64,000 nucleotides of DNA, from IMG/VR virus record IMGVR_UViG_3300026966_000012; one strand, given 5' to 3'. This document shows, in pieces, positions 4,469 to 62,814 of the stretch. The translations under genes and the position numbers were made by a program. The notes under the pieces were generated by a model, which had not been told where the DNA came from, made no database searches, and was given only the letters and a program-made list of their open reading frames with translations. The stretch's first letter is position 1. Each line of letters starts with the position of its first letter. The stretch is from a virus (taxonomy: Duplodnaviria; Heunggongvirae; Uroviricota; Caudoviricetes).

Positions 4469-4486
4469 CCGAAAACTGGTATTTAC
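4469..4486 (+). promoter_or_regulatory. CGAAAACTGGTATWTA promoter motif, copy 1
   Basis: Same motif found upstream of the protease, sheath and TMP genes. Confidence 0.4.
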
Positions 4487-4520
4487 CGCGTGGGGCCTAC
4501 CGTGACATGGAGTACCAGAG

Positions 4521-4841
4521 ATGCCCCGACCGATCGAACGGATGGGTTGTGTTGCCGACCGACTGAGCGACGAGTGGGAGCTCGATGACATCGTGATCGA
4601 GCCGTCGGCGACCGTGACAGCAATCTACCGTCACGTATCCGGGGCGTACGTCATGTGGTCGGCCGACCCGGGACACACGGTACAGTTGTGGGAGGCCGAC
4701 GGATCGGTCGAGACGTGGCTCGATGACGACGAGTTCGCTGACCTGGATTCGGCGACCGAAACTGTCCAGACCTGCGTGGAAGTCATCGAACATGCGACCA
4801 ACCGCGCCCTACCACCAGCAGCGTCGACCCCGCGCCCGTAA
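4521..4841 (+). CDS. hypothetical protein
   Basis: 106-aa ORF, high GC3. Confidence 0.5.
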   Translation: MPRPIERMGCVADRLSDEWELDDIVIEPSATVTAIYRHVSGAYVMWSADPGHTVQLWEADGSVETWLDDDEFADLDSATETVQTCVEVIEHATNRALPPAASTPRP

Positions 4842-5016
4842 CGTTCCGCTTTTCCGCACCGCCTGCGCCAACCTGTCGACTTCCCGATTCAGTCTGACCT
4901 TGCTACGTTGTGTGATTACGGGCAAACACCTCAGATATACATATATTAATATTCACTCCACCCTTAGGTAGAAGTAGGCCAGGAAAACTGGCCCACCCGA
5001 ACGGAGATAGAGAAAG

Positions 5017-5166
5017 ATGCGATACAGAGTCTACGGTACGCACAGTGGCAACGAGTTTCAGGCACCTGTCGACGCAGTCGATGCGAGTGACGCGGTCGAC
5101 GAGTTCCTCGAGTCGGTCGAGGACCCGACCGAGTTCAGCGACGTCGAGGCCGAGGTCTGGGGGTAG
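5017..5166 (+). CDS. small acidic protein (49 aa)
   Basis: Untracked ORF after the module hairpin GGCCAGGAAAACTGGCC + CACCCGAACGGAG. Confidence 0.4.
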   Translation: MRYRVYGTHSGNEFQAPVDAVDASDAVDEFLESVEDPTEFSDVEAEVWG

Positions 5167-5169
5167 CCG

Positions 5170-5340
5170 ATGTCTGGCGAACCCCACACGGGCCCGATCG
5201 ACGCACACGTGTGCGAGCTCGAACCGCTCGATGGCGACGAGTTCGCGACCGTCCACAGCAAGGGCCAGTGCACGATCTGCGGGACCGTGACGACGCCGGC
5301 CCGGGGCGTGAAGAACGCGAAGCGACAGCGGATGTGGTAG
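5170..5340 (+). CDS. small zinc-ribbon-like protein (56 aa)
   Basis: Untracked ORF MSGEPHTGPIDAHVCELEPLDGDEFATVHSKGQCTICG... Confidence 0.35.
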   Translation: MSGEPHTGPIDAHVCELEPLDGDEFATVHSKGQCTICGTVTTPARGVKNAKRQRMW

Positions 5341-5342
5341 CG

Positions 5343-5651
5343 ATGGAGACAGAGAACGTCGCGATCGTCTCGCTGGAGGCGGCTGAAGTTGCCCGACGCG
5401 AGTTGGACATCCTGATTGAACAGACTGGCGGCCCGAACGCCGGGATCGATGAGTCGTGCTCGCCGATGGCCCTCGCGCGCCAACGCATCGAGCGCCTGGA
5501 AGGCGAAGGGATAGACCCGTTCACCGTGGCGACTGTGCTGCAAGTCATGTACGGCGTCGCGGAGGAGCGTGGTGTCGAGATCAGTAGCGCCGACCCGTTG
5601 CAGGACGACGTCTTCCGGGCACGAAGCGAGTTCGAGTCGGATCTCGAGTAG
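5343..5651 (+). CDS. hypothetical protein
   Basis: Internal ATG (METENVAIV) of track ORF 5211..5651, directly after the upstream stop. Confidence 0.45.
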   Translation: METENVAIVSLEAAEVARRELDILIEQTGGPNAGIDESCSPMALARQRIERLEGEGIDPFTVATVLQVMYGVAEERGVEISSADPLQDDVFRARSEFESDLE

Positions 5652-6059
5652 TCTCGACCCTGCTGCGGTTTGCATCGTTCCTGGTGGTAGTGAGCGGTTC
5701 GATTCCGTGACGATGCCTGGCCCCCGAGCCCTCAGACGATACGTTGATAGGTTCGCGGGGCCTATGCTCACGCGGCATCCGTTAGTGATGCCGTTCCGTT
5801 CGGGTGGGATAGCACGCGTCGGGCTGTCTCGGCAAGGGCAACCACGTCAGTCGAGATCAGAGGCTCGTGCAAACCCGTTGCCCGGGGCATTTGTCCCCGG
5901 GCGCCCTTTGGTACCGCCTCGAGCGAGAGCTCTTGTTCTCTGACATCGCGTATCCGCGCCCGAGCGCGCAAACCCGGTGTGATCATGCTACGATCCTGTT
6001 CTATCAGCAATATTATCTGACAAAGATATTATTATATCAGCTCCAGCCTAAGGTAAAGT

Positions 6060-6200
6060 ATGGCACGAAAAAGCCACTCGAGCGGAGATAGCGTGAACAA
6101 GCAGCGGTACCGCGGCAACGAGTCGACCGCCGACTTCGACCTGGGCGACGCACTGAGCCAGATCTCGGAGAGCCGCGAGGAGGACGAGGACGATGAGTGA
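6060..6200 (+). CDS. small acidic protein (46 aa), N-terminus MARKSHSSGD
   Basis: ATG inside the module hairpin TGGCACGAAAAAGCCA + CTCGAGCGGAG; untracked. Confidence 0.45.
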   Translation: MARKSHSSGDSVNKQRYRGNESTADFDLGDALSQISESREEDEDDE

Positions 6201-6402
6201 GCGCATGCACCGGGAGCCGAGCAAGTTCTCGGCTGACGAACTGTCAATCGGCGACGAGATCGTGGTCGCTGGCCTCGTCCACGAGGTCATGTCGGTGGGA
6301 GAGCCCGGGAAGCAGTGCCTCGTGCGGACGGACCGGGGCGCGTTCTCGAAAGACGGCCTGAGTAGCGGGATCGACGACGGCTCCGTGGAGGTGCGCGACT
6401 GA
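6193..6402 (+). CDS. hypothetical protein
   Basis: 69 aa; ATGAGTGA overlap. Confidence 0.45.
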   Translation: MSERMHREPSKFSADELSIGDEIVVAGLVHEVMSVGEPGKQCLVRTDRGAFSKDGLSSGIDDGSVEVRD

Positions 6403-6602
6403 TGCCGATGGCATGGGGCCTCGACGAGTCGTGCCCAGACTGTGGCGAGGACGAACTGATCTGGTGGACGAAAGACGAGACTGAACGTGTCGACGAGGTG
6501 AAGGTGGACTGCACCGCCTGCGGGATGGCGTTCCCGAAGGAGATCGTCGAGAAGACTGACGACACTCCTCGCGAGGAGATTGCACGGGGGATCGTCGCAT
6601 GA
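6402..6602 (+). CDS. zinc-ribbon protein
   Basis: CPDCG...CTACG. Confidence 0.5.
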   Translation: MPMAWGLDESCPDCGEDELIWWTKDETERVDEVKVDCTACGMAFPKEIVEKTDDTPREEIARGIVA

Positions 6603-7225
6603 GCTTCGAGTTCGACGAGGACTACGAGCTCGATGCGATGTTCGAGGGCGCGACCGAGTTCGACCCCGAGTACCAGCGCGAGCGGATGCGCGAACAGCTG
6701 GAGATCGCGGCCTGGGACATCCGTGAGGGACACGTCGAGGACGGCGAGACTTGGACGATCGAGGAGCCCAGCGTGCTGACGCCGGACCCGCTCGACGACA
6801 CCGACTTCGAATGGACGCTGCGCTTCGACGACATCGACGTGCTCGGTGACGAGAGTGTTCCCGGTGTGTTCGAAGTGATGGACCCGGAGGGAGAGTACGC
6901 CGGTCAGTTCGGTGCGTACGAGGATGGCGAGGAGCTGTTGAACGCGCTGGGCCACATCGCCCAGACGTTCCACCGCGACCGGGAGATCGCGAAGTTCCAC
7001 GCCCGCGTCGACGAGATGGAGCCCGGCGACAGTCACCTGCTCCCGAGTGGGAAGATCGAGCTGCGCGATGCCGAGAAGGCCGCGATCTTCGGCCCGGGTT
7101 ACGAGGAGCGGGTCGTGACCAACGCCGACAAAGTGACGCCGAAACTCGTCAAGCGCGTCGAGGGCGACTGGCGGGCTGAGATGCGCGAGAAGTACCGCGG
7201 GACCCCGATGGAGGAGGAGTTCTGA
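6599..7225 (+). CDS. hypothetical acidic protein
   Basis: 208 aa, high GC3. Confidence 0.55.
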   Translation: MSFEFDEDYELDAMFEGATEFDPEYQRERMREQLEIAAWDIREGHVEDGETWTIEEPSVLTPDPLDDTDFEWTLRFDDIDVLGDESVPGVFEVMDPEGEYAGQFGAYEDGEELLNALGHIAQTFHRDREIAKFHARVDEMEPGDSHLLPSGKIELRDAEKAAIFGPGYEERVVTNADKVTPKLVKRVEGDWRAEMREKYRGTPMEEEF

Positions 7226-7399
7226 ATGACCTACGAGATTCCGGCCAACGCAAGTGACAGAGACGAACGTATCGCCGAGCGGATGAACGAGATGCTGTTC
7301 AACGAGTTCGACATCCCGCTCGATGATTTCGAGATCCTGAGTGAAGAAGCAGGCTCGTTCGAGATCACGATCGAACCAGGTGTCGGGACGGTGGACTGA
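7226..7399 (+). CDS. small hypothetical protein (57 aa)
   Basis: Untracked; starts 1 nt after the upstream stop. Confidence 0.35.
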   Translation: MTYEIPANASDRDERIAERMNEMLFNEFDIPLDDFEILSEEAGSFEITIEPGVGTVD

Positions 7400-7539
7400 T
7401 GGGCGTCCCCGTGGGTGAGGCTGATGGTGAGTTCGCTGTGGAGCTGACGTGCGTCGCCTGTGAGGGCACGTTCGAGACCGATGAGACGATGCCCAACGAT
7501 TGCCCCGAGTGTGGGCGGCTGAGCTACACCGCGGCCTGA
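7399..7539 (+). CDS. small zinc-ribbon protein (46 aa)
   Basis: CVACEG...CPECG; followed by terminator motif CCGCTTTTGCGCACCGCCCCGTCG. Confidence 0.4.
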   Translation: MGVPVGEADGEFAVELTCVACEGTFETDETMPNDCPECGRLSYTAA

Positions 7540-7607
7540 CCGCGCTCCGCTTTTGCGCACCGCCCCGTCGAATGAGTTATCAGTTTTGCGGTAGTATCGC
7601 CGAATAG

Positions 7608-8120
7608 ATGAGTGACGATCGCAAGCCGTGGGAGAACCCCGTGACGCTGGCGCGGGCCTACGCCGAGTACGGCTCGGCTGAAGGCGTCGCTGACGCCTGG
7701 GGCTGTTCCGAACGGACGATCCGAACGTGGCTGCACGAGCACGACGAGATCCGCGTCAAGCGACAGGGTCGACGGCCGAGCTGGGAAGACACCGAGCCCC
7801 CGAACCACGTCCTCGAAGACGACGAGGGCTACGAGATCGTCGAGGCGTTCGTTCCCGTCCGCGACGACCGTGGCGAGCTCGTGAAGATCGAACGCAAAGC
7901 CGTCCGCATGCACCGGCTGATGTGTGTCCTCGAGTGGGGGTTCGACGCCGTCTGCGACATGGAAGTGCATCACCAGGATGGAATGAAGTTGCATAACTTG
8001 CCGCGGAACCTGGTGCCGCTCGATCACCTGACGCACGCGAACATGCAGACGCATCGGCGCTGGCGGATGCCCTGGGTCGGTGACTACGAACAGGGCGACC
8101 CCGGCCCAGTGGACGCGTAG
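7608..8120 (+). CDS. HNH endonuclease with an N-terminal HTH
   Basis: HTH segment GCSERTIRTWL; HNH core EVHHQDG...NLVPLDHLTHANM. Confidence 0.65.
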   Translation: MSDDRKPWENPVTLARAYAEYGSAEGVADAWGCSERTIRTWLHEHDEIRVKRQGRRPSWEDTEPPNHVLEDDEGYEIVEAFVPVRDDRGELVKIERKAVRMHRLMCVLEWGFDAVCDMEVHHQDGMKLHNLPRNLVPLDHLTHANMQTHRRWRMPWVGDYEQGDPGPVDA

Positions 8121-8135
8121 TGGGTTACGTCTGGT

Positions 8136-8282
8136 GCGTATCCCACGTGTCGCGCGCGTTTCACGGGTCGCGTATCCCGCGCGCGTTATCCCAGGTGCGT
8201 ATCCCGGGCCCTCGTTCTCGTGTACAGCGTATCCCTTGTGAGAGCACGCGAGAGCCCTCTCCCCCAGTAGAGATACGCACCC
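8136..8282. repeat. iteron-like cluster: 5 direct GCGTATCCC repeats plus 1 inverted copy
   Basis: Copies near 8136, 8170, 8183 (GCGTTATCCC), 8197 and 8227; inverted GGGTGCGTATC near 8272. Confidence 0.55.
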
Positions 8283-8391
8283 TTCGCATATCAATCGAGT
8301 TACGTAAGCAGCTATTGCCGATTCGGCGCCCCAGCGCGGCAACCCGGTGATTGCCAACCCCTAATCTATGACTCATGTTGATAAAGAAACA

Positions 8392-8399
8392 CTTAATAT
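8392..8399 (+). promoter_or_regulatory. TATA box of a cassette promoter
   Basis: acttaatatc lies about 26 nt upstream of the ATG at 8422. Confidence 0.45.
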
Positions 8400-8421
8400 C
8401 CCTCCACTCTTAGGTTAAGAT

Positions 8422-8583
8422 ATGGGACAAAAATCCCAACTCGGGCGGAACGAGGTACAGAGCGTCAAAATTGAAACGCAGGGCTCCCATGCTACGCTCT
8501 CACACATCGAGGGCGTGTGGATCGAGGATGGAGAGCTGGTCATCCGCACCCTCGAGGACTTGCCAATTCACGGAGAAATCTGA
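8422..8583 (+). CDS. small protein (53 aa), N-terminus MGQKSQLGRNE
   Basis: ATG embedded in hairpin TGGGACAAAAATCCCA; untracked frame (track ORF 8471..8809 is a different frame). Confidence 0.4.
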   Translation: MGQKSQLGRNEVQSVKIETQGSHATLSHIEGVWIEDGELVIRTLEDLPIHGEI

Positions 8584-8734
8584 GGCACGTCCTCCCACGG
8601 GACGCGCCCCCATGTCAAGCCTTCGTCCACGCGCAGCGGAGAGTGGCGGCGCCGACGGCTCGCCCTCGCGGGCCCGAGCGCGGCAAACCGGCACCATGCG
8701 ACGCCCGCGGAATCCCCGCAGTATCAGCCGTCTT

Positions 8735-8748
8735 ACATATATTAAATA
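8735..8748 (+). promoter_or_regulatory. TATA box of a cassette promoter
   Basis: acatatattaaata, about 27 nt before the ATG at 8772. Confidence 0.45.
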
Positions 8749-8771
8749 CCCTACCCTGAGTAGGAAGAAGT

Positions 8772-9107
8772 ATGGGACAAAAATCCCACCCCCGACCGGA
8801 GCAGTGTGAAGTGCCAGGGTACTACTGGACCGCCCCCGAAGTCGTCGAGTGCTGGCGCGACCCCGAGGACGTGCTGATCGCGTGGGACGACGGTGTGTAC
8901 GTGCTGTGTGTCGGCGAGCCGGCCGAGCATGCGAGTGAGTCAGGGCGACCGCTGTGGTACGCGCCCGAAGTGCGAGTGCACGACGTGTTCGTCGACGGCG
9001 AGCGATTCGAGCTGATCGAGCGCGACGACGAGCGCCTGCGCAACGTGCGGGAAGTGAGAGTGACGCACGGGACTGCAAGCGCCGTCGCCGAGCTCGAGTC
9101 AGCGTGA
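8772..9107 (+). CDS. hypothetical protein, N-terminus MGQKSHPRPE
   Basis: ATG inside hairpin TGGGACAAAAATCCCA followed by CCCCGACCGGAG. Confidence 0.55.
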   Translation: MGQKSHPRPEQCEVPGYYWTAPEVVECWRDPEDVLIAWDDGVYVLCVGEPAEHASESGRPLWYAPEVRVHDVFVDGERFELIERDDERLRNVREVRVTHGTASAVAELESA

Positions 9108-9187
9108 TCGTCGCCGTCGTCGCGCTGCTGGTGGTGCTGATAGGGCTCGCCGTGTTCTGGGCTGTCGTGCGGGCGATGGCGTCGTAG
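9104..9187 (+). CDS. tiny hydrophobic peptide (27 aa)
   Basis: GTGA overlap; VIVAVVALLVVLIGLAVFWAVVRAMAS. Confidence 0.3.
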   Translation: MIVAVVALLVVLIGLAVFWAVVRAMAS

Positions 9188-9336
9188 GGCCCTGTCGCGT
9201 GCCGCTTTCCCGCCGCGCCCCGTCGACCGCCGTCTGTCGTTTCCCCTCCGTCCACTCCGTCACCTCCGCGCGCCGCGTCACTGAAACCCGGTGTCCATGC
9301 CACGATCCGTACCCGACGACAATATCAGCCGATTAA

Positions 9337-9349
9337 CATATCTATATAC
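9337..9349 (+). promoter_or_regulatory. TATA box of a cassette promoter
   Basis: catatctatatac. Confidence 0.45.
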
Positions 9350-9371
9350 TTGCCCCAGACGAAGGTTAAGT

Positions 9372-9575
9372 ATGGCACGAAAATGCCTCCCGGACGGGTA
9401 CAGCTGGACAGTCGACGGTGAAGACGCGCAGACGACCGAGATCTACGTCGAGAACGCAGAGGGTGAGCTGATCGGCAAAGACCACGTGGCGTCGCAGTTC
9501 GTGCGAACCGACGCCGAGCGCGAGGAAGTTGCGGCGCAGATCGCCGCGGGTGAGCGGGGGCGTCAGTTCCAGTAG
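9372..9575 (+). CDS. hypothetical protein, N-terminus MARKCLPDG
   Basis: ATG inside hairpin TGGCACGAAAATGCC; internal ATG (index 27) of track ORF 9291..9575. Confidence 0.5.
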   Translation: MARKCLPDGYSWTVDGEDAQTTEIYVENAEGELIGKDHVASQFVRTDAEREEVAAQIAAGERGRQFQ

Positions 9576-9689
9576 AGCGGCGCCGACTGTCGGTTTTACG
9601 CCGTGCCCCGTCGACCATGCGACGTTCAGCGGAAGTCGACAATATCAGCTGTCATACATATATTCATATTCGCTCCCGACCAAGATAAG

Positions 9690-9806
9690 ATGGGGAGAAA
9701 AGCCCCACCCGACGGAACCATGAGCTACGCGACCCACGTCCAGATCCGGAAGTTGCAGAGAGCGAGAGACAAGAGCCGCTGGCCGAGCGACGAGGACGAC
9801 GAGTAG
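9690..9806 (+). CDS. small protein (38 aa), N-terminus MGRKAPPDG
   Basis: ATG inside hairpin TGGGGAGAAAAGCCCCA + CCCGACGGAAC. Confidence 0.4.
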   Translation: MGRKAPPDGTMSYATHVQIRKLQRARDKSRWPSDEDDE

Positions 9807-9833
9807 CGGGGCCGCCGCGGCCCCCTCGCCGAC

Positions 9834-9872
9834 GCGTGTGTACGTACATACGCGCCCATATGTACGTACGCC
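9834..9872. repeat. GTACGTACA alternating purine/pyrimidine palindrome
   Basis: gcgtgtgtacgtacatacgcgcccatatgtacgtacgc. Confidence 0.5.
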
Positions 9873-9990
9873 CATCTCGAACCCTCACGTGCCCGAGCGC
9901 GGCAAACCGGCACCCTGCGACGTCCGTCACAAGTCGACACATATCAGCCGCTTTACGTGTCTTTAATACCCTACCAGCCCAAGGTATAGT

Positions 9991-10353
9991 ATGGAAGCCA
10001 AAAACTTCCCACCGCGAACGGTGCAGAGCGCAGAGCCAACCGACGTCGTCGAAGAAGACGGCTACCGAGTCCTGACGTACGAGGACGTCGACGTCGACAT
10101 TCGGATCTCGCGGACGATCAGCCCCGAGACGCCGAAAATCTGGGTCGCCGGCGACCGACTCGACACGCAAGTGGAGACGGTGACCGACGTCGAGTTCCTC
10201 GGCTTCGAGCTCTGGCGATACACCTACCTCGAGGGTAAGCCGACCCATGCCGGTGAGGGTCGACACCGAGGCCGATTCGCCGAGGTCGAGATCGAGGAGA
10301 ATCACTACGGCGAAGACGAAGTCCACGAGTTCAGCCTCAGGGTCAAGCGGTAG
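9991..10353 (+). CDS. hypothetical protein, N-terminus MEAKNFPPRT
   Basis: ATG in hairpin TGGAAGCCAAAAACTTCCCA. Confidence 0.55.
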   Translation: MEAKNFPPRTVQSAEPTDVVEEDGYRVLTYEDVDVDIRISRTISPETPKIWVAGDRLDTQVETVTDVEFLGFELWRYTYLEGKPTHAGEGRHRGRFAEVEIEENHYGEDEVHEFSLRVKR

Positions 10354-10394
10354 ACGGGGCTGACGCCCGGTTTCGCGCGCCGCCCCGCCGCCCG

Positions 10395-10700
10395 ACGACC
10401 CCTGTTTCCACTCCGTCTGGTCCAACGCGGAATAGTAGAGGAAATTATTATTTGCAGAGATCGAGCCCTGAATACAACCCGCCTCAGCGAGGTTCATGGG
10501 CGCTACACGTCGGCGAGTTTTGTGAGGCATGGCTCCTACCCCTTCGAGTTGGCTCACGGCATTCCGAGCGTCGTGTGGACGGTGTCTCCGCGAGGTTCGT
10601 GGGCATCTCAGGAAATGCCCCCTGATGATACGAGAACCCCTGTTTCCCTTCCGCGTGCCGCGTCACGCGAATCCGGCACGCGCCATGCGACGTCGACGTC
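10395..10700. ncRNA. copy B of a conserved roughly 250-300 nt non-coding element (candidate ncRNA or regulatory repeat)
   Basis: Aligns with 1..335 and 14085..14335; core CTCCTACCC..GCTCACGGC, GCRTCTCAGG, CCCCTGTTTCC. Confidence 0.35.
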
Positions 10701-10724
10701 CATCCAGCAGTAACAGCCGTCTTA

Positions 10725-10737
10725 CATATCTATATAC
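10725..10737 (+). promoter_or_regulatory. TATA box of a cassette promoter
   Basis: catatctatatac. Confidence 0.45.
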
Positions 10738-10760
10738 CTGCACCACTCTTAGGATAAGAT

Positions 10761-11138
10761 ATGGGAACCAAAAACCCATCCGAAGCGGAACAGAGCGACG
10801 AGATCCTCCCGGCCCTCGACCACCGCGGACTGACGGGCCACGGCAAGGCCCGACTCGAGGAGAGCGAGCTCGTGACCCCGTACCTCGTGCGGACCCTCCA
10901 GGAGGCGGACCCGGCCATCCTCCGGGCCCTCTCGCAAGTGGCTGACGCCGCCGCCTCGGCCCGGTACGGCCCCATCCAGGCCCAGCTGGCCAAGGACGAA
11001 AGCGCGAGCCGCGAGATCCAGCAGCAGTACTGGAACCAGCTGGACGACGTGAAGGGCCTGTCCCTCCTCTGCACGGAAATCCTGCGCGACGAGCGTGACG
11101 GCGTGCCCAGCGAGGACGACCCGAGACTCGGCTTCTAA
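10761..11138 (+). CDS. hypothetical protein, N-terminus MGTKNPSEAE
   Basis: ATG in hairpin TGGGAACCAAAAACCCA. Confidence 0.55.
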   Translation: MGTKNPSEAEQSDEILPALDHRGLTGHGKARLEESELVTPYLVRTLQEADPAILRALSQVADAAASARYGPIQAQLAKDESASREIQQQYWNQLDDVKGLSLLCTEILRDERDGVPSEDDPRLGF

Positions 11139-11504
11139 CGCCGACCAGCGCACTACCACCAGCAGCGGCTGGCCTGCGCACCGGTTTTCCGCCGTGCCCC
11201 GTCGCCCACGTGACCCTCGTTTCCGCTCCGCCCGCGACTGTCTCGTGCGATCGTCGCGCCCTGCTTGCGTACGTGTCCCCCCACTGTTACGCTCGTCACG
11301 CCTGCGTTCGCGGCCTGTGCTATCCGCGTCCGACCCCTGTTTCATCTCCGCGTGCCAAGGCGCGGCAACCCGGTGGCGTCCCCGTCAGCAAACGGGCCCT
11401 TTCTGCAAGCAATCCGACACTGAAATCTATAAAACGCTGTCTCAAGCCCTCTACACGAGGATTTAGACCAGAACCTTTATATCAAATCAAGTTCAAGAAG
11501 AAGT

Positions 11505-11744
11505 ATGGAATCAAAAATTCCATCCCGGACGGAGAGTGGCGAGAGTGTCGAAATCGCAGTCGGTCACCGAGCGGAGAGCGACGTCATCGCGCGGGCGCTC
11601 AACGAGAAGGCGCGGGAAGCCGAGCTCGAAGCGGAGCGGGCCGGGCCGAAAACGCAGCCCGTGCACGAGCTCGACGCCGCCGTGCTGCGAAGCGCCGCCG
11701 CCGAGTTCGAGCGCGAGTACGCCGAGTGGCGCGAGGAGCGATAG
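11505..11744 (+). CDS. hypothetical protein, N-terminus MESKIPSRTE
   Basis: ATG in hairpin TGGAATCAAAAATTCCA + TCCCGGACGGAG. Confidence 0.5.
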   Translation: MESKIPSRTESGESVEIAVGHRAESDVIARALNEKAREAELEAERAGPKTQPVHELDAAVLRSAAAEFEREYAEWREER

Positions 11745-11746
11745 AG

Positions 11747-11908
11747 ATGCGCCCCGACGTGATCGAGTGGACGGGCGAGGCGCACCTGGTGACGACGGGC
11801 TGTGACGAGTGCGGGCGATCGTTCTCGATCGACGAGGACAGCGTGCGGTGGGCGGACGAGCGCGGACGACCCGTGTTCTGCGACTCGTGCGGGTCGGGAG
11901 GGCTGTGA
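11747..11908 (+). CDS. zinc-ribbon protein (53 aa)
   Basis: CDECG...CDSCG; in frame with track ORF 11210..11908. Confidence 0.45.
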   Translation: MRPDVIEWTGEAHLVTTGCDECGRSFSIDEDSVRWADERGRPVFCDSCGSGGL

Positions 11909-11909
11909 G

Positions 11910-12017
11910 ATGCGGCGGCTGCGGACGGCGCTGCTGGCGGCGAGCGTCGTGACGCGGATCGTCGCGTTCCCGGCGGTGTTGGCTGTCGCGCGGGCCCGAG
12001 CGAGGGTCGTGCGGTGA
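11910..12017 (+). CDS. small hydrophobic peptide (35 aa)
   Basis: MRRLRTALLAASVVTRIVAFPAVLAVA... Confidence 0.3.
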   Translation: MRRLRTALLAASVVTRIVAFPAVLAVARARARVVR

Positions 12018-12229
12018 GTTCCGTGCAGCGGCGGTTGTTCGAGGAGTCGGCGGTCGGGGCGGTCTGGGTCGAAGACAGTGACGGGGGTCGCGCGCTGGTG
12101 ACCGTCGAGCGGCACCCGACGGTGTCGATGGGACGTCTGCTCGAGGCGCTCCGGGGACGTGACGACGTCGAGACGGTGCGCCAGACGACAGCGACGCACG
12201 TCGAGGCGATCGTGCGAGGTGACGCCTGA
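12014..12229 (+). CDS. hypothetical protein
   Basis: GTG start overlapping the upstream stop. Confidence 0.4.
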   Translation: MSSVQRRLFEESAVGAVWVEDSDGGRALVTVERHPTVSMGRLLEALRGRDDVETVRQTTATHVEAIVRGDA

Positions 12230-12309
12230 TGCTGGTGGTACTGCTCGTTGCCCTGCTCGTGGTGCTGTTCGGCGTCTGGCTCGTGCTGGCCGCGGCTACC
12301 GCGTTCTAA
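12229..12309 (+). CDS. tiny hydrophobic peptide (26 aa)
   Basis: MLVVLLVALLVVLFGVWLVLAAATAF; ATGA overlap. Confidence 0.3.
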   Translation: MLVVLLVALLVVLFGVWLVLAAATAF

Positions 12310-12406
12310 CCTCGCGCGACGCGCCGCGGCAACCCGGTGAATCGGTCTAAGGGCTGTTACTACCGCATCACTGATATTTAATACCTCATGCGTCGAAGAT
12401 GAAGAT

Positions 12407-12868
12407 ATGGGACCAAAATCCCACCCAACGGGCGATGAAGCGAGCGATGAAGCGAGCGACGACGTCGTTGTCGTCGATGAGTGTGCGACGTGGGTCGGGC
12501 GACGCGAAGACGTGAGTGAAGACGAAGCCGTCGCCGCGATGAGCGATGTCGAGCGGGCCGTGAAGCGGGTCGCAGACGAGCGATGGGTCGACGTCGTGCG
12601 GGTCGCGATGTGCGACGACGAAGTGCGGGCCGTCGTGAAGATGAAGCAGTGTGAAGGGCCGGGTGCGGGCGCGACGACGTGGGCGAGCGCGTTGTGCGAC
12701 GTCGAGTTGGGCGACGGGCGCGAGCGCGAAGTCGATGTGAGCGTGACGTTGCCGGGCCGTGAAGGGATGTCGGGCGATGTGATGGGCGAAGTCGAAGTCG
12801 ACGGGCGCGAGTGGGAAGTGCGACGTGAAGTGTGGGTCGACGAAGACGGGCGCGAAGTCGGGCCGTAG
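12407..12868 (+). CDS. hypothetical acidic protein, N-terminus MGPKSHPTGD
   Basis: ATG in hairpin TGGGACCAAAATCCCA. Confidence 0.5.
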   Translation: MGPKSHPTGDEASDEASDDVVVVDECATWVGRREDVSEDEAVAAMSDVERAVKRVADERWVDVVRVAMCDDEVRAVVKMKQCEGPGAGATTWASALCDVELGDGREREVDVSVTLPGREGMSGDVMGEVEVDGREWEVRREVWVDEDGREVGP

Positions 12869-12995
12869 CGCGAGCGTGGGCGACGTCGCCGCCGGGCGAT
12901 GTCGTCGCGTGTCGGTTTCGCGCCGCGCCACCGCCCAACCAGCAGTTACAGCCGGAACACGTGCCTATATATCAGTATCATGAGAAGTAAGAAGT

Positions 12996-13334
12996 ATGGA
13001 ACCGAAAAGTTCCCACCGAGCGGAGTACAGTGAGCCGCCCATCGAGCTGGCGAATGCCGTGCGACGCGGCGAGCACTACCTGCTGGGCGACGTTGGAGAG
13101 TTCGTGGTCGACGAGATCGCTGTTGGGTACCCAGTCGAGGAGCGAGACGGCGTGGTCGCCCCGAACCGCGAGGCGTTCGTCACGCGTATCGAGTTTGTGG
13201 CGCCGGGCGAGTGTATCGTGATGGGTCTTGCCGAGCTCGAGGACCGCATCGATCGAACCGATGTGTTGCCCCTGACCGTGCGCGAACGCGATGAGGAGCT
13301 GCACGCGGAGTGGGAGAGCCACGGGCTGCTGTAG
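12996..13334 (+). CDS. hypothetical protein, N-terminus MEPKSSHRAE
   Basis: ATG in hairpin TGGAACCGAAAAGTTCCCA + CCGAGCGGAG. Confidence 0.55.
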   Translation: MEPKSSHRAEYSEPPIELANAVRRGEHYLLGDVGEFVVDEIAVGYPVEERDGVVAPNREAFVTRIEFVAPGECIVMGLAELEDRIDRTDVLPLTVRERDEELHAEWESHGLL

Positions 13335-50236: not shown

Positions 50237-50355
50237 TCGCGTAGACTCACCGTTTTTCGGATAGCTTGAAACCAAACGAGTGGAAGCCACTCGTGTATGA
50301 AAACACTCTTAATCTGATAGTACCAAGAATGTGATAACGCCTCCCCAGGTGTCAC

Positions 50356-52522: not shown

Positions 52523-52539
52523 CGAAAACTGGTATATAT
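52523..52539 (+). promoter_or_regulatory. late promoter motif CGAAAACTGGTATATAT
   Basis: TATA about 28 nt before the ATG at 52563. Confidence 0.5.
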
Positions 52540-54022: not shown

Positions 54023-54469
54023 ATGAGCCGAGCAGCAGAGGTCGGCGACAACCTGAACTTCACCTCGGACGACGCCGCTGACGGCGGCTTCGACTCCGAG
54101 GGCTACGTCCTCGAACCCGGAGACGACAACGGGCGAACGGTCAAGAAAGCCGGCGCTGGCTCCAACACGAACGCCTTCATGGGCGTCAACCACAAGAGCA
54201 CCTACAACTACGACGAGTCTGTCGTCCAGCAGGGTGTCCCCGTCGGGGTCATCCAGGACGGCGTCGCGATGGTGCTCTGCATGGGCGGAGCCAACTACCA
54301 GCTCGGCGAGCACGTGTACTTCCCCGACACTGGGGAGGATGCGGGCGTCGCCTCCAAGTCGAACAACAGCAACACGGAAGTCGGCAAGGTCGTCGAAGAC
54401 CACGATGACTCCGCAGGCTCGGCGAGCGACCCGGTGCTCGTCAAGGTCCGCGTCGACGGGAGGGTCTAA
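54023..54469 (+). CDS. hypothetical head protein
   Basis: 148 aa. Confidence 0.45.
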   Translation: MSRAAEVGDNLNFTSDDAADGGFDSEGYVLEPGDDNGRTVKKAGAGSNTNAFMGVNHKSTYNYDESVVQQGVPVGVIQDGVAMVLCMGGANYQLGEHVYFPDTGEDAGVASKSNNSNTEVGKVVEDHDDSAGSASDPVLVKVRVDGRV

Positions 54470-54471: not shown

Positions 54472-55419
54472 ATGGCAAAGCAGACAATCACTGAGATCGC
54501 CGCAGACGGCGAAGCGACAGAAGACGACGTACTCCGTCGCCAGGTCGTGCGCGAGCTGCTCTACAAGCAGGCCGGGAACCTCTCGGTCGGCACGCAGATC
54601 GTCGACACGACCTCGTTCGACGTGCTCGACGTCAAGTTCGAGTACCCCGGCGAGATGTCGGCGGAGTACCCGGTGGCACAAGACACCACCGTGGACCGAC
54701 AGAAGATCACCTGGAACGAGTTCGACATGTCCCTCCAGCAGGGAGAGGGTCGGTACTTCATCGCCGACTCCGCCAAGCTCCGGGGCATGGGCGACCTCCA
54801 GCAGCGGTTCACCCAGCAGCGCCAGGGAGAGGCCCTCGCGCGCCGGAAAGACGAGAACATCCTCTCGGCTCTCCTGAACGGCTCCCCATCCGCCAACGAC
54901 GACACCGCGTCGGCCGGCGACGAGTGGGACCAGCCCGACGTGGACATGGTCAACAAGCTCCACGGCATGTGGACGGACATCCTCACGAACGCGCCGATCA
55001 ACAACGCGAACATCGGCAACTTCAGTGTCGTCCTCCCCATCGAGATCTGGGCGGAGATCAACCAGGTCGAGCTGATCAACAACGTGCAGCAGCAGATCCG
55101 GGACTACCTCGGAACCACGTTCGGGTTCAGCATCTACCCGACCAAGCTCGGGCTCCACGACGACGACAACGTGGACCTCCAGGACGAGGCCATCATGCTC
55201 ATCCCCGGCGACGAGACCGCCATCCACGGCGTGCTCTCGGACAACGCGGCCGCCTCCGCAGGCGTGCCGCTCGTCGAGGAAGAACGCATCGCGGGCCGCG
55301 GCGACGAGTACATCGTCAGCCAGTGGTTCAACACCGCGATCGTCGAGCACGAGGGTGCCGGCGCTGGCGAGAGCCCGCGCATCGCCACCCGGAAGAACGT
55401 CAACAGCAACCGGAGCTAA
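54472..55419 (+). CDS. major capsid protein (putative, HK97-fold size class)
   Basis: 315 aa following the protease and scaffold. Confidence 0.55.
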   Translation: MAKQTITEIAADGEATEDDVLRRQVVRELLYKQAGNLSVGTQIVDTTSFDVLDVKFEYPGEMSAEYPVAQDTTVDRQKITWNEFDMSLQQGEGRYFIADSAKLRGMGDLQQRFTQQRQGEALARRKDENILSALLNGSPSANDDTASAGDEWDQPDVDMVNKLHGMWTDILTNAPINNANIGNFSVVLPIEIWAEINQVELINNVQQQIRDYLGTTFGFSIYPTKLGLHDDDNVDLQDEAIMLIPGDETAIHGVLSDNAAASAGVPLVEEERIAGRGDEYIVSQWFNTAIVEHEGAGAGESPRIATRKNVNSNRS

Positions 55420-59512: not shown

Positions 59513-59530
59513 GCGAAAACTGGTATATAC
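59513..59530 (+). promoter_or_regulatory. late promoter motif GCGAAAACTGGTATATAC
   Basis: TATA about 31-37 nt before the ATG at 59561. Confidence 0.5.
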
Positions 59531-59560: not shown

Positions 59561-60916
59561 ATGCCAACCAGTGTAGTCGACCTGAGCCTGTCGTCGAGCA
59601 CTGGTGCCACGGTCCAAGAGACGTACAACGACATCTGCGTCATCGGCCATGCCACCAGCGCACCCACGGCTGGGTTCAACACCGTGAAGTCCTACACGTC
59701 CGCCTCGGACGTGGAATCGGACTTCGGGGCCAACTCTGACGTTCACACCGCCTCACAAGCCCTCGCGGAGATGGGCGTCGAGAGTTGGTCGGTCATCGTA
59801 GCAGAAGAAAAGACAGTCACTGACGAAGTGGTCGGAAGCTCCGACTCGTCCGCAGTCACGAACGGGACAGTCGCGAACACACCGATGCACGACGACGACT
59901 CGGTCATCGACGTCACCGTCGACGGCGGGAGTTCGCTGACGAAGAACTTCACGACGGACGACCCGAGCTCGAAGTCGCCGGCCGCTGGTGAGTGCTACAT
60001 CAACACCGACACCGGAGAAGTAGAGTCCGGTGACGCATCGTCCGGGTCGGGCAACGGGATCGAGGTGGACTACCACTACCTCGACTGGTCCCCGGTCAAG
60101 ACGGAGATCGAGCCTCAGGGCTTCGACCTGGTGTTCCTCGCAGACACGTACTTCGACGTTCCCGGGTACGGGAACCTCGACGAGGTCGTGACCTGGGCCA
60201 GCTCGAACGACGCCGGTGTCGTCGGTGCCTCGGTGAACGGCGACAACGAGTCGACCGAGCAGGACGCGATGGACATTGCCCACGAAGTCGGCGGTGCCGT
60301 CTCCTCGGGTTACTACATGCAGGTGGCCCACAAGTCGACCGACGACGTCGCGGCCTACATCGTCGGCCAACTCGGCGTGAACGAAGCCTGGTTCGACCCA
60401 TTCTGGGACGGCGACGGCTACCCGTTCGCGACGAACTACTACAGCCGCGCCAACGTCGGCGACCCCGCCTCGGCGGGAACGTTCGAGGGTGGCGATGCCA
60501 GTAACCAGGAAGGCGCGACCAACGTCGTGATCAGTGTCGACGGGACGAAAGTCCTCTCGAACTCGCTGACCACAGCCGGCTCGTCGTCGAACTACCAGTT
60601 CTTCGACGTCGCCCGGACAGAATCGTTCGTCGCCAGCGAGATCGAAAACGCACTCACGTCGCTGCGTCTGTCGAGTGACCAGATCCCGTACACGTCCCAG
60701 GGTCGCTCGGCCATCATCGGCGCGATCCAGGGCCAGCTCCAGGAGTACGTCTCCGGACAGGGAGCCCCGCTCTCGGAACTGGACATCACGGCACCCACGA
60801 TCGACCAGATCTCGGACTCTGACAAGGCGAACCGCGTGTTCCCCAACATCAGCGTCACCGGCACGCTGGCCGGGAACGTGCACGAGTTCGGCGTCGATCT
60901 GAACGTGAAGGTCTAA
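59561..60916 (+). CDS. putative tail sheath protein
   Basis: 451 aa directly upstream of a roughly 130-aa tube-like protein. Confidence 0.45.
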   Translation: MPTSVVDLSLSSSTGATVQETYNDICVIGHATSAPTAGFNTVKSYTSASDVESDFGANSDVHTASQALAEMGVESWSVIVAEEKTVTDEVVGSSDSSAVTNGTVANTPMHDDDSVIDVTVDGGSSLTKNFTTDDPSSKSPAAGECYINTDTGEVESGDASSGSGNGIEVDYHYLDWSPVKTEIEPQGFDLVFLADTYFDVPGYGNLDEVVTWASSNDAGVVGASVNGDNESTEQDAMDIAHEVGGAVSSGYYMQVAHKSTDDVAAYIVGQLGVNEAWFDPFWDGDGYPFATNYYSRANVGDPASAGTFEGGDASNQEGATNVVISVDGTKVLSNSLTTAGSSSNYQFFDVARTESFVASEIENALTSLRLSSDQIPYTSQGRSAIIGAIQGQLQEYVSGQGAPLSELDITAPTIDQISDSDKANRVFPNISVTGTLAGNVHEFGVDLNVKV

Positions 60917-60931
60917 AGGAGGTGAGATAAG

Positions 60932-61321
60932 ATGCCAAAATCAGAGTACGACGCCCGCGAAGTCTCGATCATGGTCGATGGGGTCGCAATCGCCGACCTC
61001 GACTCGTTCGGATACGACCAGAGTAAAGCCCACGAGCTCGAACGCACCCTCGACGAGGGAAGCGTTTGGGTGAAGGGAACCGGGGAGTTCACCGGGACAG
61101 TGGTCATGAAGGCCACGTCCGACAACATCCCGGACGTCGAAGACCTGTTCCAGAACGACGAGATCTTCGACATCACGATCCAGTACGCAAGCACGGAGCC
61201 ACGCGATCAGAGCGTGTTCACCCGAGTCATGCTCCAGGACTGGGGCCCATCGGACTACGAGCTCGATGGACTCCCGACGTTCGAAGGGTCCTGGGAAGCC
61301 GACGAGGTCGCCCACAGCTAA
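60932..61321 (+). CDS. putative tail tube protein
   Basis: 129 aa after the sheath. Confidence 0.4.
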   Translation: MPKSEYDAREVSIMVDGVAIADLDSFGYDQSKAHELERTLDEGSVWVKGTGEFTGTVVMKATSDNIPDVEDLFQNDEIFDITIQYASTEPRDQSVFTRVMLQDWGPSDYELDGLPTFEGSWEADEVAHS

Positions 61322-61367
61322 CCTCGACGGCAAAACTGTTATAGCGACGGAATCAGTAATCTGATAT

Positions 61368-61976
61368 ATGTCGGGTAACGACAAGTCTGACCCAGAAGTC
61401 ACTGAGCGTCGCGACGTTACTGACCTCTCGACAAACGATGAGGTAGAAGAAGCTGTCGACGACATGCTCGGTATCCCGGAAGAAGAACGGCCGGAACGCA
61501 ATCTGTCCGTCCCAGAGGGCGAAGAAGACCTGGAAGCAGAAGCCGACGAACCAGAGCTTCGCCCCGAGGTCGAAGCGCACATGGAAGCCGCGCGTGAGCA
61601 ACAAGAGGCCCAGGAAAGTGAGTCCTCGACAGAGGTGACCGTCAGCTCGCTCGATGAGCCAGACGAGTGGGAAAGCTTCGACTTCGAAGACCAGGAGTGG
61701 ACGCTCGACGACGCCAAAGAGCCCGAGATCCGCGAGATCCGCGGGATGGTGTTCAAACTCGCCGAGCCAGAAGACGACGACGAGATCCTCAACCAGCTGG
61801 AAGTCGCGAGCGACGGCGACCGCTGGGACCAGATGTTCGCTCTGGTCAGCCTCGTGGTGGAGGGCCCGGAGGTCACAGAGGAGCGGTGGGACAACATGAG
61901 CTTCGCCTCCAAGCTCGCACTCGGGTCGGCCGCAGCTGACTACCTGGGGCTGGACGAGGGTTTTCTCGACGAATAA
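61368..61976 (+). CDS. acidic protein, possible tail assembly chaperone
   Basis: Position between the tube and TMP; very acidic. Confidence 0.35.
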   Translation: MSGNDKSDPEVTERRDVTDLSTNDEVEEAVDDMLGIPEEERPERNLSVPEGEEDLEAEADEPELRPEVEAHMEAAREQQEAQESESSTEVTVSSLDEPDEWESFDFEDQEWTLDDAKEPEIREIRGMVFKLAEPEDDDEILNQLEVASDGDRWDQMFALVSLVVEGPEVTEERWDNMSFASKLALGSAAADYLGLDEGFLDE

Positions 61977-62352
61977 GGGGCTGGGCACAGTCCCCTGCTG
62001 GCCAGATCACGGTCAGCATCGCCCTGAGATTCAACAAAGAGATCGAAGAAGTCGATGCATGGCCCTGGCGCCGCCGATTCGCTTACGCCCTGGCGATCGG
62101 CGCAGTCGAAAACCAGGAGAACGCACAGTCCGAGCTCCCGAATGTAAATACAAGCCAACTCCCCGCTGGCGCGAACGTGAATACGCACATGCCCTCCGGC
62201 AAAGAAGTCCACCCATCCGTCGCGAAGCACGACCACGTATTCCACGTCGAGAACGGCAACTGACCGCTCACTACCACCAGGAGCGTCTGTGGCATACACT
62301 TATTACCGCATACTGTCAATATCTATATATGGAACTAACTGAAAGAAGCACC

Positions 62353-62778
62353 ATGGGACTGACTGAAGAAACCGCGGCTGACTGGATCGGGCGATCGAAA
62401 GAGGAGATGCCCGATGACCTTACCAGTATGTTCGACGCGTTTGACTCACCGTGCCCAGAGTGTAACGAGAACATGGTCGCGTTCGCGCCAGAAGGTATCG
62501 ATAGCGAGTGTGTCTGCTTTGGCTGTGGGGCTGAGCTCCGCTCACACGACGTCGACAATATGTTCGAGGTGGCCAAAGAGAAAGTCGACAACCACATCGA
62601 GACTCGGGGAGAAAGAAAGGAAGCGATGTCGAAGGGTGAGTACAAGCGCGAGGGTAACAAGAACCTCGCGAAGATGCTCGGGATCATCGGTATACTGTTC
62701 TGTCTCACGATCATCGGCATCCCGATAGGTGCTGTCCTGATATACCTCGCCGCTCGCATCGCTCCTGACGAGGAGTGA
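62353..62778 (+). CDS. zinc-ribbon membrane protein
   Basis: CPECN...CFGCG and a C-terminal TM; TATA atctatatat about 25 nt upstream. Confidence 0.45.
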   Translation: MGLTEETAADWIGRSKEEMPDDLTSMFDAFDSPCPECNENMVAFAPEGIDSECVCFGCGAELRSHDVDNMFEVAKEKVDNHIETRGERKEAMSKGEYKREGNKNLAKMLGIIGILFCLTIIGIPIGAVLIYLAARIAPDEE

Positions 62779-62795
62779 CCTGATCTATTTCTGAC

Positions 62796-62814
62796 CCGAA
62801 AACTGGTATATAGG
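62796..62814 (+). promoter_or_regulatory. late promoter motif CCCGAAAACTGGTATATAG
   Basis: Fourth copy, upstream of the TMP. Confidence 0.45.

What the first reader, a model, noticed from the sequence alone, without database searches (positions are those of the whole stretch)
4469..62814. Shared late-promoter motif CGAAAACTGGTATATA in front of head, tail and TMP genes
Four copies (4469, 52523, 59513, 62796) share 15-17 nt including the TATA box and an upstream GAAAACTGG element that may be BRE-like or an activator site. Three precede the protease-scaffold-capsid block, the sheath-tube block and the tape measure gene, all with TATA-to-ATG spacing consistent with leaderless transcripts. The fourth precedes an early-region ORF (4521). 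The motif is distinct from the cassette promoter (CAGTATCAGCCG...ACATATCTATATAC), implying at least two temporal promoter classes.
Basis: seen in the sequence. Interest (0 to 1): 0.6.

Follow-up and report, generated by a model that had tools for sequence, protein, structure and literature searches.

The report
Repeated consensus promoter of a halovirus
A 15-16 base sequence repeated in front of the head, tail-sheath and tape-measure genes of an uncultivated salt-loving archaeal virus is a textbook-strength archaeal promoter that related viruses also use, so it is real but ordinary, and it is not shown to be specific to late genes.

Summary
The motif is real. CGAAAACTGGTATATA occurs exactly at 52523, 59514 and 62797, and with one mismatch (TATTTA) at 4470. 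All copies are on the coding strand and intergenic. About 0.07 matches are expected by chance, and the next-best match has 4 or more mismatches.

The window is a new haloarchaeal myovirus (sheath 42% identical to ChaoS9/phiH). A fifth copy lies just beyond the window, before the baseplate genes.

The motif survives in relatives with 56-90% sheath identity, in a 149-kb Halobaculum plasmid-provirus and in tail-only clusters of two other genera, while the upstream flanks have randomised. Across 32 instances AAAAC is invariant, TATATA is about 90% conserved, A/T at +13/+14 is 97%/84%, and 24 have an ATG at +22 to +26. These are the three published haloarchaeal basal promoter elements (BRE CGAAA, TATA box, WW at -10/-11) with leaderless geometry.

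- The tape-measure copy has a leader of about 86 nt, so it is not leaderless.
- "Late-specific" is not established. Relatives carry the same motif next to DNA ligase, polymerase and helicase genes.

A second promoter class without the BRE (the cassette promoters) is confirmed. The closest precedent is the halovirus HF2 intergenic-repeat promoters, which work similarly but share no sequence.

The parts
4470..4485 (+). Variant promoter copy CGAAAACTGGTATTTA. It starts 2 nt after the stop codon of a small membrane-protein ORF. It lacks the GTGTYTG -10 element. ATGs lie at +22 (4507, a 19-codon ORF) and +36 (4521).
   Evidence: Conserved, including TATTTA, in relative L036:12472. Degenerate in the Halobaculum plasmid at 80173.
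4521..4841 (+). ORF of 106 aa of unknown function downstream of the variant copy. It lies inside the cassette-promoter region of the window.
   Evidence: The ortholog in L036 is conserved.
52523..52538 (+). Exact promoter copy: BRE GAAAAC at 52524-52529 and TATATA at 52533-52538. It heads the head-morphogenesis block and lies in a divergent intergenic region opposite a minus-strand AAA-ATPase gene.
   Evidence: Orthologous copies at L006:5382, L031:2413, L034:3239 and plasmid 127011.
52548..52554 (+). Proximal element GTGTTTG. Its TT at +13/+14 matches the haloarchaeal WW element at -10/-11.
   Evidence: W frequency 0.97 and 0.84 at +13 and +14 over 32 instances. PMC2151090.
52563..55419 (+). 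Head block of four genes: 52563-53366 (candidate prohead protease), 53369-54022 (scaffold-like, weak coiled-coil-type matches only), 54023-54469 and 54472-55419 (major capsid protein). The first ATG is at +25 from the motif end, so the mRNA is predicted to be leaderless.
59514..59529 (+). Exact promoter copy heading the sheath-tube block.
   Evidence: Orthologs at L001:6663, L031:9593, L034:9954, L033:9953, L035:9952 and plasmid 133229.
59539..59545 (+). Proximal element GTGTCTG (the WW position).
59561..61321 (+). Tail sheath (59561-60916) and probable tail tube (60932-61321). The sheath ATG is at +32 to +34 from the motif in every relative, which predicts a leader of about 8-10 nt.
62797..62812 (+). 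Exact promoter copy upstream of the tape measure gene.
   Evidence: Variant GAAAAACTGGTATATA at L001:9954 and TGAAAACTGGTATATA at plasmid 136011. Absent in L031 and L034, where an HNH endonuclease gene abuts the TMP gene.
62822..62828 (+). Proximal element GTCTTCG (the WW position).
62840..62857 (+). Hairpin GGCGGTA-gtcg-TACCGCC near the predicted 5' end of the TMP transcript.
   Evidence: Kept, with a T-A to T-G change, in the 90% relative. A different hairpin is present in the Halobaculum plasmid. Function not established.
62868..62921 (+). 17-codon uORF whose stop codon directly abuts the TMP ATG. It is probably a remnant of the 3' end of the HNH gene found at this position in relatives.
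62922..64000 (+). Tape measure protein gene (runs off the window). The ATG is at +110 from the motif end.
   Evidence: The full 998-aa gene is seen in L027.
50298..50313 (+). Related candidate promoter TGAAAACACTCTTAAT before gene 50356-51165. It has the same BRE but a different TATA box.
   Evidence: The orthologous element CGAAAACATCTAAATA is at L034:1552.

Best explanation
The motif is the core of a strong, near-consensus haloarchaeal basal promoter that this virus lineage reuses many times.

Proposed mechanism:
- The host TATA-binding protein binds TATATA.
- Transcription factor B (TFB) reads the adjacent GAAAAC, which is the BRE (TFB-recognition element).
- An A/T pair 13-14 nt after the motif serves as the -10/-11 element.
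- RNA polymerase starts about 24 nt after the motif. In most copies that is the A of the start codon or a few bases before it, which gives leaderless or very short-leader mRNAs.

In the window's virus, one copy heads each morphogenesis sub-block: head, sheath-tube, tape measure and, just beyond the window, baseplate. A weaker variant heads ORF 4521. The likely effect is high-level re-initiation along a long, single-direction late gene array.

Shown here: the motif, its strand and position, its conservation against diverged flanks, and its geometry. Inferred: promoter activity, the transcription start site, promoter strength and timing. The motif is probably not late-specific, because relatives place it before genes in the replication module as well.
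For: - Copies and chance: four copies against 0.07 expected, forming a discrete class. A fifth copy lies at L027:14350 before the sheath-initiator/baseplate-J genes of the same virus.
- Strand: all 9 copies in the complete 148.9-kb Halobaculum plasmid-provirus are on the coding strand.
- Conservation: over 32 instances from 8 elements, AAAAC is invariant, G2 is 30/32 and TATATA is about 90% conserved, while the 20 nt upstream show no consensus.
- Proximal element: A/T at +13/+14 is 97%/84%.
- Start codon spacing: an ATG lies at +22 to +26 in 24 of 32 instances, against about 6% expected per instance. The spacing is gene-specific and conserved: head +25, baseplate +25/+26, sheath +32 to +34.
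- Match to published elements: BRE consensus CGAAA, TATA centred at -27/-28, WW at -10/-11, and mostly leaderless transcripts (PMC2151090).
- Use outside the family: the same 15-mer plus GTGT sits 21 nt before the ATG of a small gene in Natrarchaeobius oligotrophus.
- Precedent: repeated intergenic promoters in halovirus HF2 were verified with reporters and mapped transcription start sites (PMC8707807).
Against: - No transcription start, reporter or expression data exist for this virus or its relatives.
- The distant instances were found by pattern search at <=4 mismatches, where about 1.6 chance hits are expected per 21-kb locus. The conservation figures therefore carry some ascertainment bias, although orthologous position and spacing argue against chance.
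- The TMP copy has a leader of about 86 nt, unlike the others.
- The 4470 copy lacks the -10 element, and its +22 ATG opens only a 19-codon ORF.
- The strict conservation of the CTGG spacer within the clade is more than TBP/TFB contacts obviously require.
Confidence: 0.8

Rival explanations
1. This is the first reader's idea: a dedicated late-class promoter. The 15-mer, including the CTGG spacer, would be read only late in infection by a virus-encoded factor or a particular host TFB/TBP paralog, while the cassette promoters, which lack the BRE, fire early.
For: - Five of six copies in the window's virus head virion-gene blocks.
- Six of nine plasmid copies lie in the morphogenesis region.
- The cassette class differs exactly in the BRE region.
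- BRE/TATA alone can confer condition-specific expression through specific TFB paralogs in haloarchaea (PMC2396416).
- The HF2 authors proposed class-specific viral factors (PMC8707807).
- CTGG is conserved within the clade down to 56% sheath identity.
Against: - Copies precede genes flanking the DNA polymerase and helicase genes in the Halobaculum plasmid (60756, 65665).
- Copies lie after the DNA ligase gene and on both sides of the DNA polymerase gene in the closest viral contig (L043: 6548, 7225, 11672).
- The window's 4470 copy is in the cassette region.
- The terminase and portal genes, normally late, do not have the motif.
- The motif equals the host consensus, and a similar site occurs before a cellular small gene.
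- No TFB or TBP homolog is annotated in the plasmid or was seen among the window proteins tested.
Confidence: 0.25
2. The conserved CTGG (or the whole 15-mer) is mainly the operator of a virus-encoded repressor or activator that overlaps an otherwise ordinary TATA box. An example would be a lysogeny repressor that silences virion genes in the plasmid-prophage state.
For: - The related element is maintained as a ParA/ParB plasmid that must keep its virion genes silent.
- Several HTH proteins are encoded.
- The spacer is conserved beyond what the basal factors need.
Against: - The motif has no dyad symmetry.
- The spacer is not conserved in the Halorussus and Halomicrococcus tail clusters, which keep GAAAAC and TATATA.
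- No candidate binding protein was identified.
Confidence: 0.1
3. The repeat is not transcriptional. It would be a recombination or module-boundary sequence, a packaging or replication site, or a remnant of a mobile element.
For: The copies sit at module boundaries. The TMP copy coincides with an indel relative to relatives that carry an HNH gene there.
Against: - All copies are on the coding strand at a fixed distance from start codons.
- The flanks share no repeat structure.
- The content matches all three basal promoter elements.
- No Rfam family or tRNA gene is present.
Confidence: 0.03

Closest known systems
Haloarchaeal basal promoter: BRE 'CGAAA', TATA 'TTWT' centred at -27/-28, 'WW' at -10/-11, mostly leaderless mRNAs (Brenneis et al. 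2007, PMC2151090)
   Same: All three elements are present in the right order and spacing. Start codons sit at the predicted transcription start.
   Different: Host promoters match the consensus only loosely (the genome-wide logo in that paper carries about 0.3 bit). Here 15 consecutive bases are almost invariant across copies and across genomes, including a CTGG spacer that is not part of the published consensus.
[quoted passage not shown]
   Same: Near-identical short repeats in the intergenic DNA of a haloarchaeal myovirus that carry promoters. There are two sequence classes, one of them in the morphogenesis arm, and both are conserved in related viruses.
   Different: - There is no sequence similarity. 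The HF2 class II core CCCTTTAC and the class I core are absent from the window's + strand.
- HF2 has two class II copies, one of which drives a single 35-kb late transcript. Here each morphogenesis sub-block has its own copy.
- BRE mutations did not affect the HF2 IR4 promoter, whereas here the BRE is the most conserved part.
- The HF2 promoters have experimental proof; these have none.
GTF-directed regulation through core promoter elements (hsp5 promoter; Lu et al. 2008, PMC2396416)
   Same: It shows that BRE plus TATA sequence alone can assign a haloarchaeal promoter to a regulatory class through specific TFB paralogs. This is the most economical way for the two viral promoter classes to differ in timing.
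   Different: That is a host heat-shock promoter. No link to viral timing has been shown, and no TFB specificity was tested here.
Bacteriophage T4 late promoters (TATAAATA read by gp55/gp33; recalled from memory, not retrieved here)
   Same: A short, invariant promoter element repeated in front of virion genes.
   Different: T4 uses a phage-encoded sigma-like factor and a non-host consensus. This motif equals the host consensus, and no viral initiation factor was found.

Membership tests
Haloarchaeal BRE/TATA basal promoter | AT-rich TATA box about 24-30 bp upstream of the transcription start | tested here: met
   TATATA (TATTTA at 4470) is conserved at about 90% over 32 instances. Start codons at +22 to +26 after it fit a start site about 24 nt downstream. 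The start site itself was not mapped.
Haloarchaeal BRE/TATA basal promoter | Purine-rich BRE (consensus CGAAA) just upstream of the TATA box | tested here: met
   GAAAAC: AAAAC in 32/32 and G in 30/32 instances. Consensus taken from PMC2151090.
Haloarchaeal BRE/TATA basal promoter | WW element at -10/-11 | tested here: met
   A/T frequency is 0.97 and 0.84 at +13 and +14 after the motif, against 0.16 at +10 and +12 and 0.72 at +11.
Haloarchaeal BRE/TATA basal promoter | Intergenic, on the coding strand, upstream of a gene | tested here: met
   All 5 copies of the window's virus and all 9 plasmid copies are on the + strand upstream of ORFs.
Haloarchaeal BRE/TATA basal promoter | Primary transcript 5' end and orientation-dependent promoter activity | not testable with these tools
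   Needs dRNA-seq or 5'RACE and reporter assays.
HF2-type intergenic repeat promoters (homology) | Sequence similarity to HF2 class I or class II repeats | tested here: not met
   CCCTTTAC is absent. CGTCTNNTAGAG is absent on the + strand. The relationship is an analogy only.
HF2-type intergenic repeat promoters (kind) | Near-identical repeats in intergenic DNA, conserved in related viruses, in distinct sequence classes | tested here: met
Temporal 'late' promoter class | Restricted to late (virion or lysis) genes | tested here: not met
   Copies lie next to DNA ligase, polymerase and helicase genes in relatives and at 4470 in the cassette region. The terminase and portal genes lack the motif.
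Temporal 'late' promoter class | Late timing of transcripts and dependence on a dedicated factor | not testable with these tools
   No expression data. No viral TFB or TBP was found among the proteins tested or annotated.

The most novel reading that the evidence does not exclude
The two promoter sequence classes of this virus differ essentially only upstream of the TATA box: GAAAACTGG in one and the cassette-type ACATATC plus CAGTATCAGCCG in the other. They could form a BRE-encoded temporal switch. In that case different host TFB paralogs, or an unrecognised viral factor that reads the clade-specific CTGG spacer, would select which class fires. This would be an archaeal counterpart of phage sigma-factor cascades, and it could be tested in a cultured host that carries the related 149-kb plasmid-provirus.
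Probability: 0.2. Interest if true: 0.55.

Novelty: new member of a known kind. Interest (0 to 1): 0.3.

Why it matters
The result gives a precise, conserved promoter definition (nGAAAACTGGTATATA-N9-GTGTYT, start about 24 nt downstream) for an unstudied lineage of large haloarchaeal myoviruses and their plasmid-proviruses.

Practical uses:
- It improves start-codon and operon annotation in these genomes.
- It identifies a candidate strong promoter for haloarchaeal expression work.
- It points to a cultured system (Halobaculum halophilum Gai3-2, plasmid unnamed3) in which viral promoter classes and TFB-paralog selectivity could be tested.

It does not reveal a new mechanism.

Tried and rejected
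- Megablast of 50-64 kb against INPHARED phages gave no match. The capsid protein gave no tblastn match, so there is no cultured close relative to borrow transcription data from.
- A sheath-based scan of GTDB genomes confirmed no relative.
- ChaoS9/phiH/phiCh1-type viruses have tightly packed structural genes with no such intergenic promoters. Relatives with 48-51% sheath identity (L037, L038) lack the motif and instead carry TGTACATGTACA palindromes before the TMP and baseplate genes. The 43% relative L039 has neither.
- The exact 16-mer scan of IMG/VR returned mostly low-GC chance hits. It also missed true copies, because position 1 is variable.
- The TMP leader fold stands out in the window only (z = -3.2). 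It does not in the 90% relative (z = -0.65) or in the plasmid (z = -1.25), so I make no claim of a conserved regulatory RNA. The uORF is not conserved in the plasmid.
- Rfam and tRNA scans of the window found nothing.
- No literature hit for the motif string.
- The protease identity of 52563-53366 has no Pfam, PHROG or PDB sequence hit and no similarity to the ChaoS9 protease. There is only a weak fold hit to T4 gp21.
- I considered and rejected a mobile-element or recombination-site reading, because the flanks share nothing and the geometry to start codons is fixed.
Full report
**1. The observation**

A search for CGAAAACTGGTATATA with up to 3 mismatches finds exactly four sites in the 64-kb window, all on the + strand. 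They are 52523, 59514 and 62797 (exact) and 4470 (one mismatch, TATTTA). Dinucleotide-preserving shuffles give 0.07 matches on average and never four. When the search is relaxed to 5 mismatches, nothing appears between 1 and 4 mismatches, and the single 4-mismatch hit lies in coding DNA. The class is therefore discrete.

**2. What the window is**

The window has about 60% GC and nearly all genes are on the + strand. Identified genes:

| Coordinates | Gene |
|---|---|
| 24193 | terminase large subunit |
| 32789 | ThyX |
| 39647 | DpdA |
| 47246 | ribonucleotide reductase |
| 59561-60916 | tail sheath (42% identical to Halobacterium phage ChaoS9, 41% to phiH) |
| 62922 onward | tape measure protein (TMP) |

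There is no nucleotide match to any phage in INPHARED. This is an uncultivated haloarchaeal myovirus.

In the head block, 54472-55419 is 79% identical to a relative's protein with a weak Phage_capsid_4 hit. The first gene, 52563-53366, has only a weak but top-ranked fold match to the T4 gp21 prohead protease.

**3. More copies of the motif**

The same virus continues on JGI contig Ga0207718_100161 (L027). A fifth copy, TGAAAACTGGTATATA, lies there 25 nt before the ATG of a sheath-initiator gene that is followed by baseplate J.

Relatives keep the motif at the same places:

| Relative | Sheath identity | Copies found |
|---|---|---|
| IMG/VR contig 3300027007_000030 | 90% | sheath, TMP, baseplate, plus two further variants downstream |
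| Halobaculum halophilum Gai3-2 plasmid unnamed3 | 79% | nine copies (listed below) |
| Logan contig (L031) | 63% | head, sheath |
| ENA contig (L034) | 56% | head (exact), sheath, baseplate |

The Halobaculum plasmid (148,857 bp, circular, with ParA/ParB) is syntenic with the window. It carries nine copies at <=3 mismatches, all on the coding strand: baseplate (5316), two tail-distal genes (11146, 12450), 60756, 65665, the ORF 4521 ortholog (80173), head (127011), sheath (133229) and TMP (136011).

Tail-gene clusters without capsid genes occur in the Halorussus halophilus chromosome and in a Halomicrococcus gelatinilyticus plasmid. They keep GAAAAC-N3-TATATA before the sheath gene, the baseplate genes and two further genes.

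**4. Anatomy**

I aligned 32 instances.
- AAAAC is invariant, the preceding G is 30/32, and the T/A positions of TATATA are about 90% conserved.
- The first base (C in the window) varies freely between orthologs.
- The 20 nt upstream show no consensus.
- Downstream, positions +10 to +15 tend to GTGTTT. A/T frequency is 0.97 at +13 and 0.84 at +14, against 0.16 at +10 and +12.
- An ATG lies at +22 to +26 in 24 of 32 instances, where about 6% per instance is expected by chance.

The spacing is gene-specific and conserved while the intervening sequence changes: head +25, baseplate +25/+26, and sheath +32 to +34 in every relative.

**5. Comparison with known promoters**

Brenneis et al. (PMC2151090) defined three haloarchaeal basal promoter elements from mapped 5' ends: a BRE (TFB-recognition element) with consensus CGAAA, a TATA box centred at -27/-28, and WW at -10/-11. 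They also showed that most haloarchaeal transcripts are leaderless.

If the start site is placed about 24 nt after the motif, GAAAAC falls at about -38 to -33, TATATA at -29 to -24 and the A/T pair at -11/-10. The 'upstream element' is therefore the canonical BRE. No extra activator site is needed.

The predicted 5' UTRs are:

| Copy | Predicted 5' UTR |
|---|---|
| head | 0-1 nt |
| baseplate | 1-2 nt |
| sheath | about 8 nt |
| ORF 4521 | about 12 nt |
| TMP | about 86 nt |

The TMP leader contains a hairpin (62840-62857) and a 17-codon uORF whose stop codon abuts the TMP ATG. In L031 and L034 an HNH endonuclease gene occupies this position and there is no promoter. The uORF resembles the 3' end of that HNH gene and is not conserved in the plasmid. 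The leader fold is exceptional only in the window (z = -3.2, against -0.65 and -1.25 in the relatives). I therefore claim no regulatory RNA.

**6. Is it a late promoter?**

In favour: one copy heads each morphogenesis sub-block.

Against:
- The 4470 copy lies among cassette-type promoters in a non-structural region. The DNA upstream of the window's start in a relative encodes an SNF2 helicase, not virion genes.
- The plasmid has an exact copy at 60756, upstream of the DNA polymerase gene, and a variant at 65665, before a small ORF and the helicase gene.
- The closest viral contig (L043) has copies after the DNA ligase gene and on both sides of the DNA polymerase gene. One of them heads a block that contains a beta-helix protein.
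- The terminase and portal genes have other upstream sequences, namely GTACGTACATAC-type repeats.
- A 15-mer-plus-GTGT match in Natrarchaeobius oligotrophus sits 21 nt before the ATG of a small cellular or plasmid gene.

Taken together, this fits a general strong promoter better than a late-only one.

**7. Two sequence classes**

The cassette promoters have the consensus CAGCAGTATCAGCCG-N4-ACATATCTWTATAC, with about 24 nt to the ATG. They share the TATA/WW/leaderless geometry but lack GAAAAC. So the two classes differ upstream of the TATA box.

In haloarchaea, BRE plus TATA alone can make a promoter condition-specific through particular TFB paralogs (PMC2396416). That makes a BRE-encoded temporal difference possible, but it is untested here.

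**8. Closest precedent and novelty**

Halovirus HF2 has class I (early/middle) and class II (late, morphogenesis arm) intergenic repeats. These were shown to be promoters by reporter assays and transcription-start mapping, and they are conserved in related viruses (PMC8707807). The present motif is an analogue, not a homologue, because the HF2 repeat cores are absent. The motif string does not occur in the searchable literature.

My verdict is that this is a real, well-conserved, near-consensus viral promoter. It is a new member of a known kind and of modest interest.

**9. Caveats**
- There are no expression data.
- Distant instances were found by pattern search, so the conservation figures are somewhat ascertainment-biased.
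- Orthologous instances are not independent.
- The strict conservation of CTGG within the clade is unexplained. It could reflect shared ancestry under selection for strength, or a clade-specific factor.

Noticed in passing
window, about 25 sites; exact copies at 24122, 27677, 47635 and 52423; others include 11151, 16155, 22013(-), 16914(-), 56367 and 62269: A 17-mer, CACTACCACCAG[A/C]AGCG, is scattered on both strands in coding and intergenic DNA. It often lies just after stop codons or shortly upstream of promoters (before the terminase gene, about 100 nt before the head promoter, and before gene 56394). Its function is unknown. A binding site for a DNA-binding protein is possible.
   Followed up: partly
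window 4905-16300 (for example 8700-8790, 10689-10779, 12335-12425, 14307-14397 and 15382-15472): In the cassette gene family, each copy has its own promoter and a conserved N-terminus (ATGGGACAAAAATCCCAC). The bases at and just after the start codon form a short hairpin with an A-rich loop. The stem covaries between copies: GGGAC/TCCC, GGAAC/GTTCC, GGAAG/CTTCC, GGAAT/ATTCC and GGCCAG/CTGGCC. This suggests a selected 5'-terminal stem-loop on leaderless mRNAs, or a DNA inverted repeat.
   Followed up: partly
window 3959-3976, 9834-9870, 24136-24172, ~31034-31067 and ~51790-51823; also L037:12610-12660, L037:18480-18530, L038:9590-9640 and L038:16110-16160: GTGTACGTACATAC-type repeats occur in the window, together with two identical 34-nt palindromes (GCACGTACATATACACACGCACATATGTACGTGC). 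More distant relatives carry TGTACATGTACA palindromes exactly where this virus has the GAAAAC promoter, before the TMP and baseplate genes. These may be another regulatory or promoter class.
   Followed up: no
L033 (Halorussus halophilus CP044523, 3052011-3073363) and L035 (Halomicrococcus gelatinilyticus CP100467, 19044-40396): Sheath-to-baseplate gene clusters with no capsid genes upstream, flanked by ordinary cellular genes (leuS, proline biosynthesis). These may be haloarchaeal tailocin-like or contractile-injection elements that retain the viral promoter architecture.
   Followed up: no
L040-L042 (NZ_CP058532.1, Halobaculum halophilum Gai3-2 plasmid unnamed3): This 148.9-kb 'plasmid' is syntenic with the window (terminase, thyX, RNR, head, sheath, TMP, baseplate) and also encodes ParA/ParB. 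It is probably a plasmid-form provirus of this virus lineage in a cultured host.
   Followed up: partly
window 62868-62921; L031:12321-12926; L034:12882-13850: Relatives have an HNH endonuclease gene inserted directly upstream of the TMP gene. The window instead has a promoter copy plus a 17-codon ORF that looks like the remnant of the 3' end of that HNH gene.
   Followed up: partly
window 43700-46200, especially 45700-45950: A stretch with little coding signal that includes an AT-rich segment of about 250 nt (TATTTTATTTTTATGTAATGG...). It may be an origin or another regulatory region.
   Followed up: no
window 35870-35882 and 15413-15426: GAAAAC is directly abutted to TATATA with no 3-nt spacer (AGAAAACTATATA before gene 35915, GGAAAACTATATAC in the cassette copy before 15454). 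These are variant BRE-TATA spacings within the same genome.
   Followed up: no
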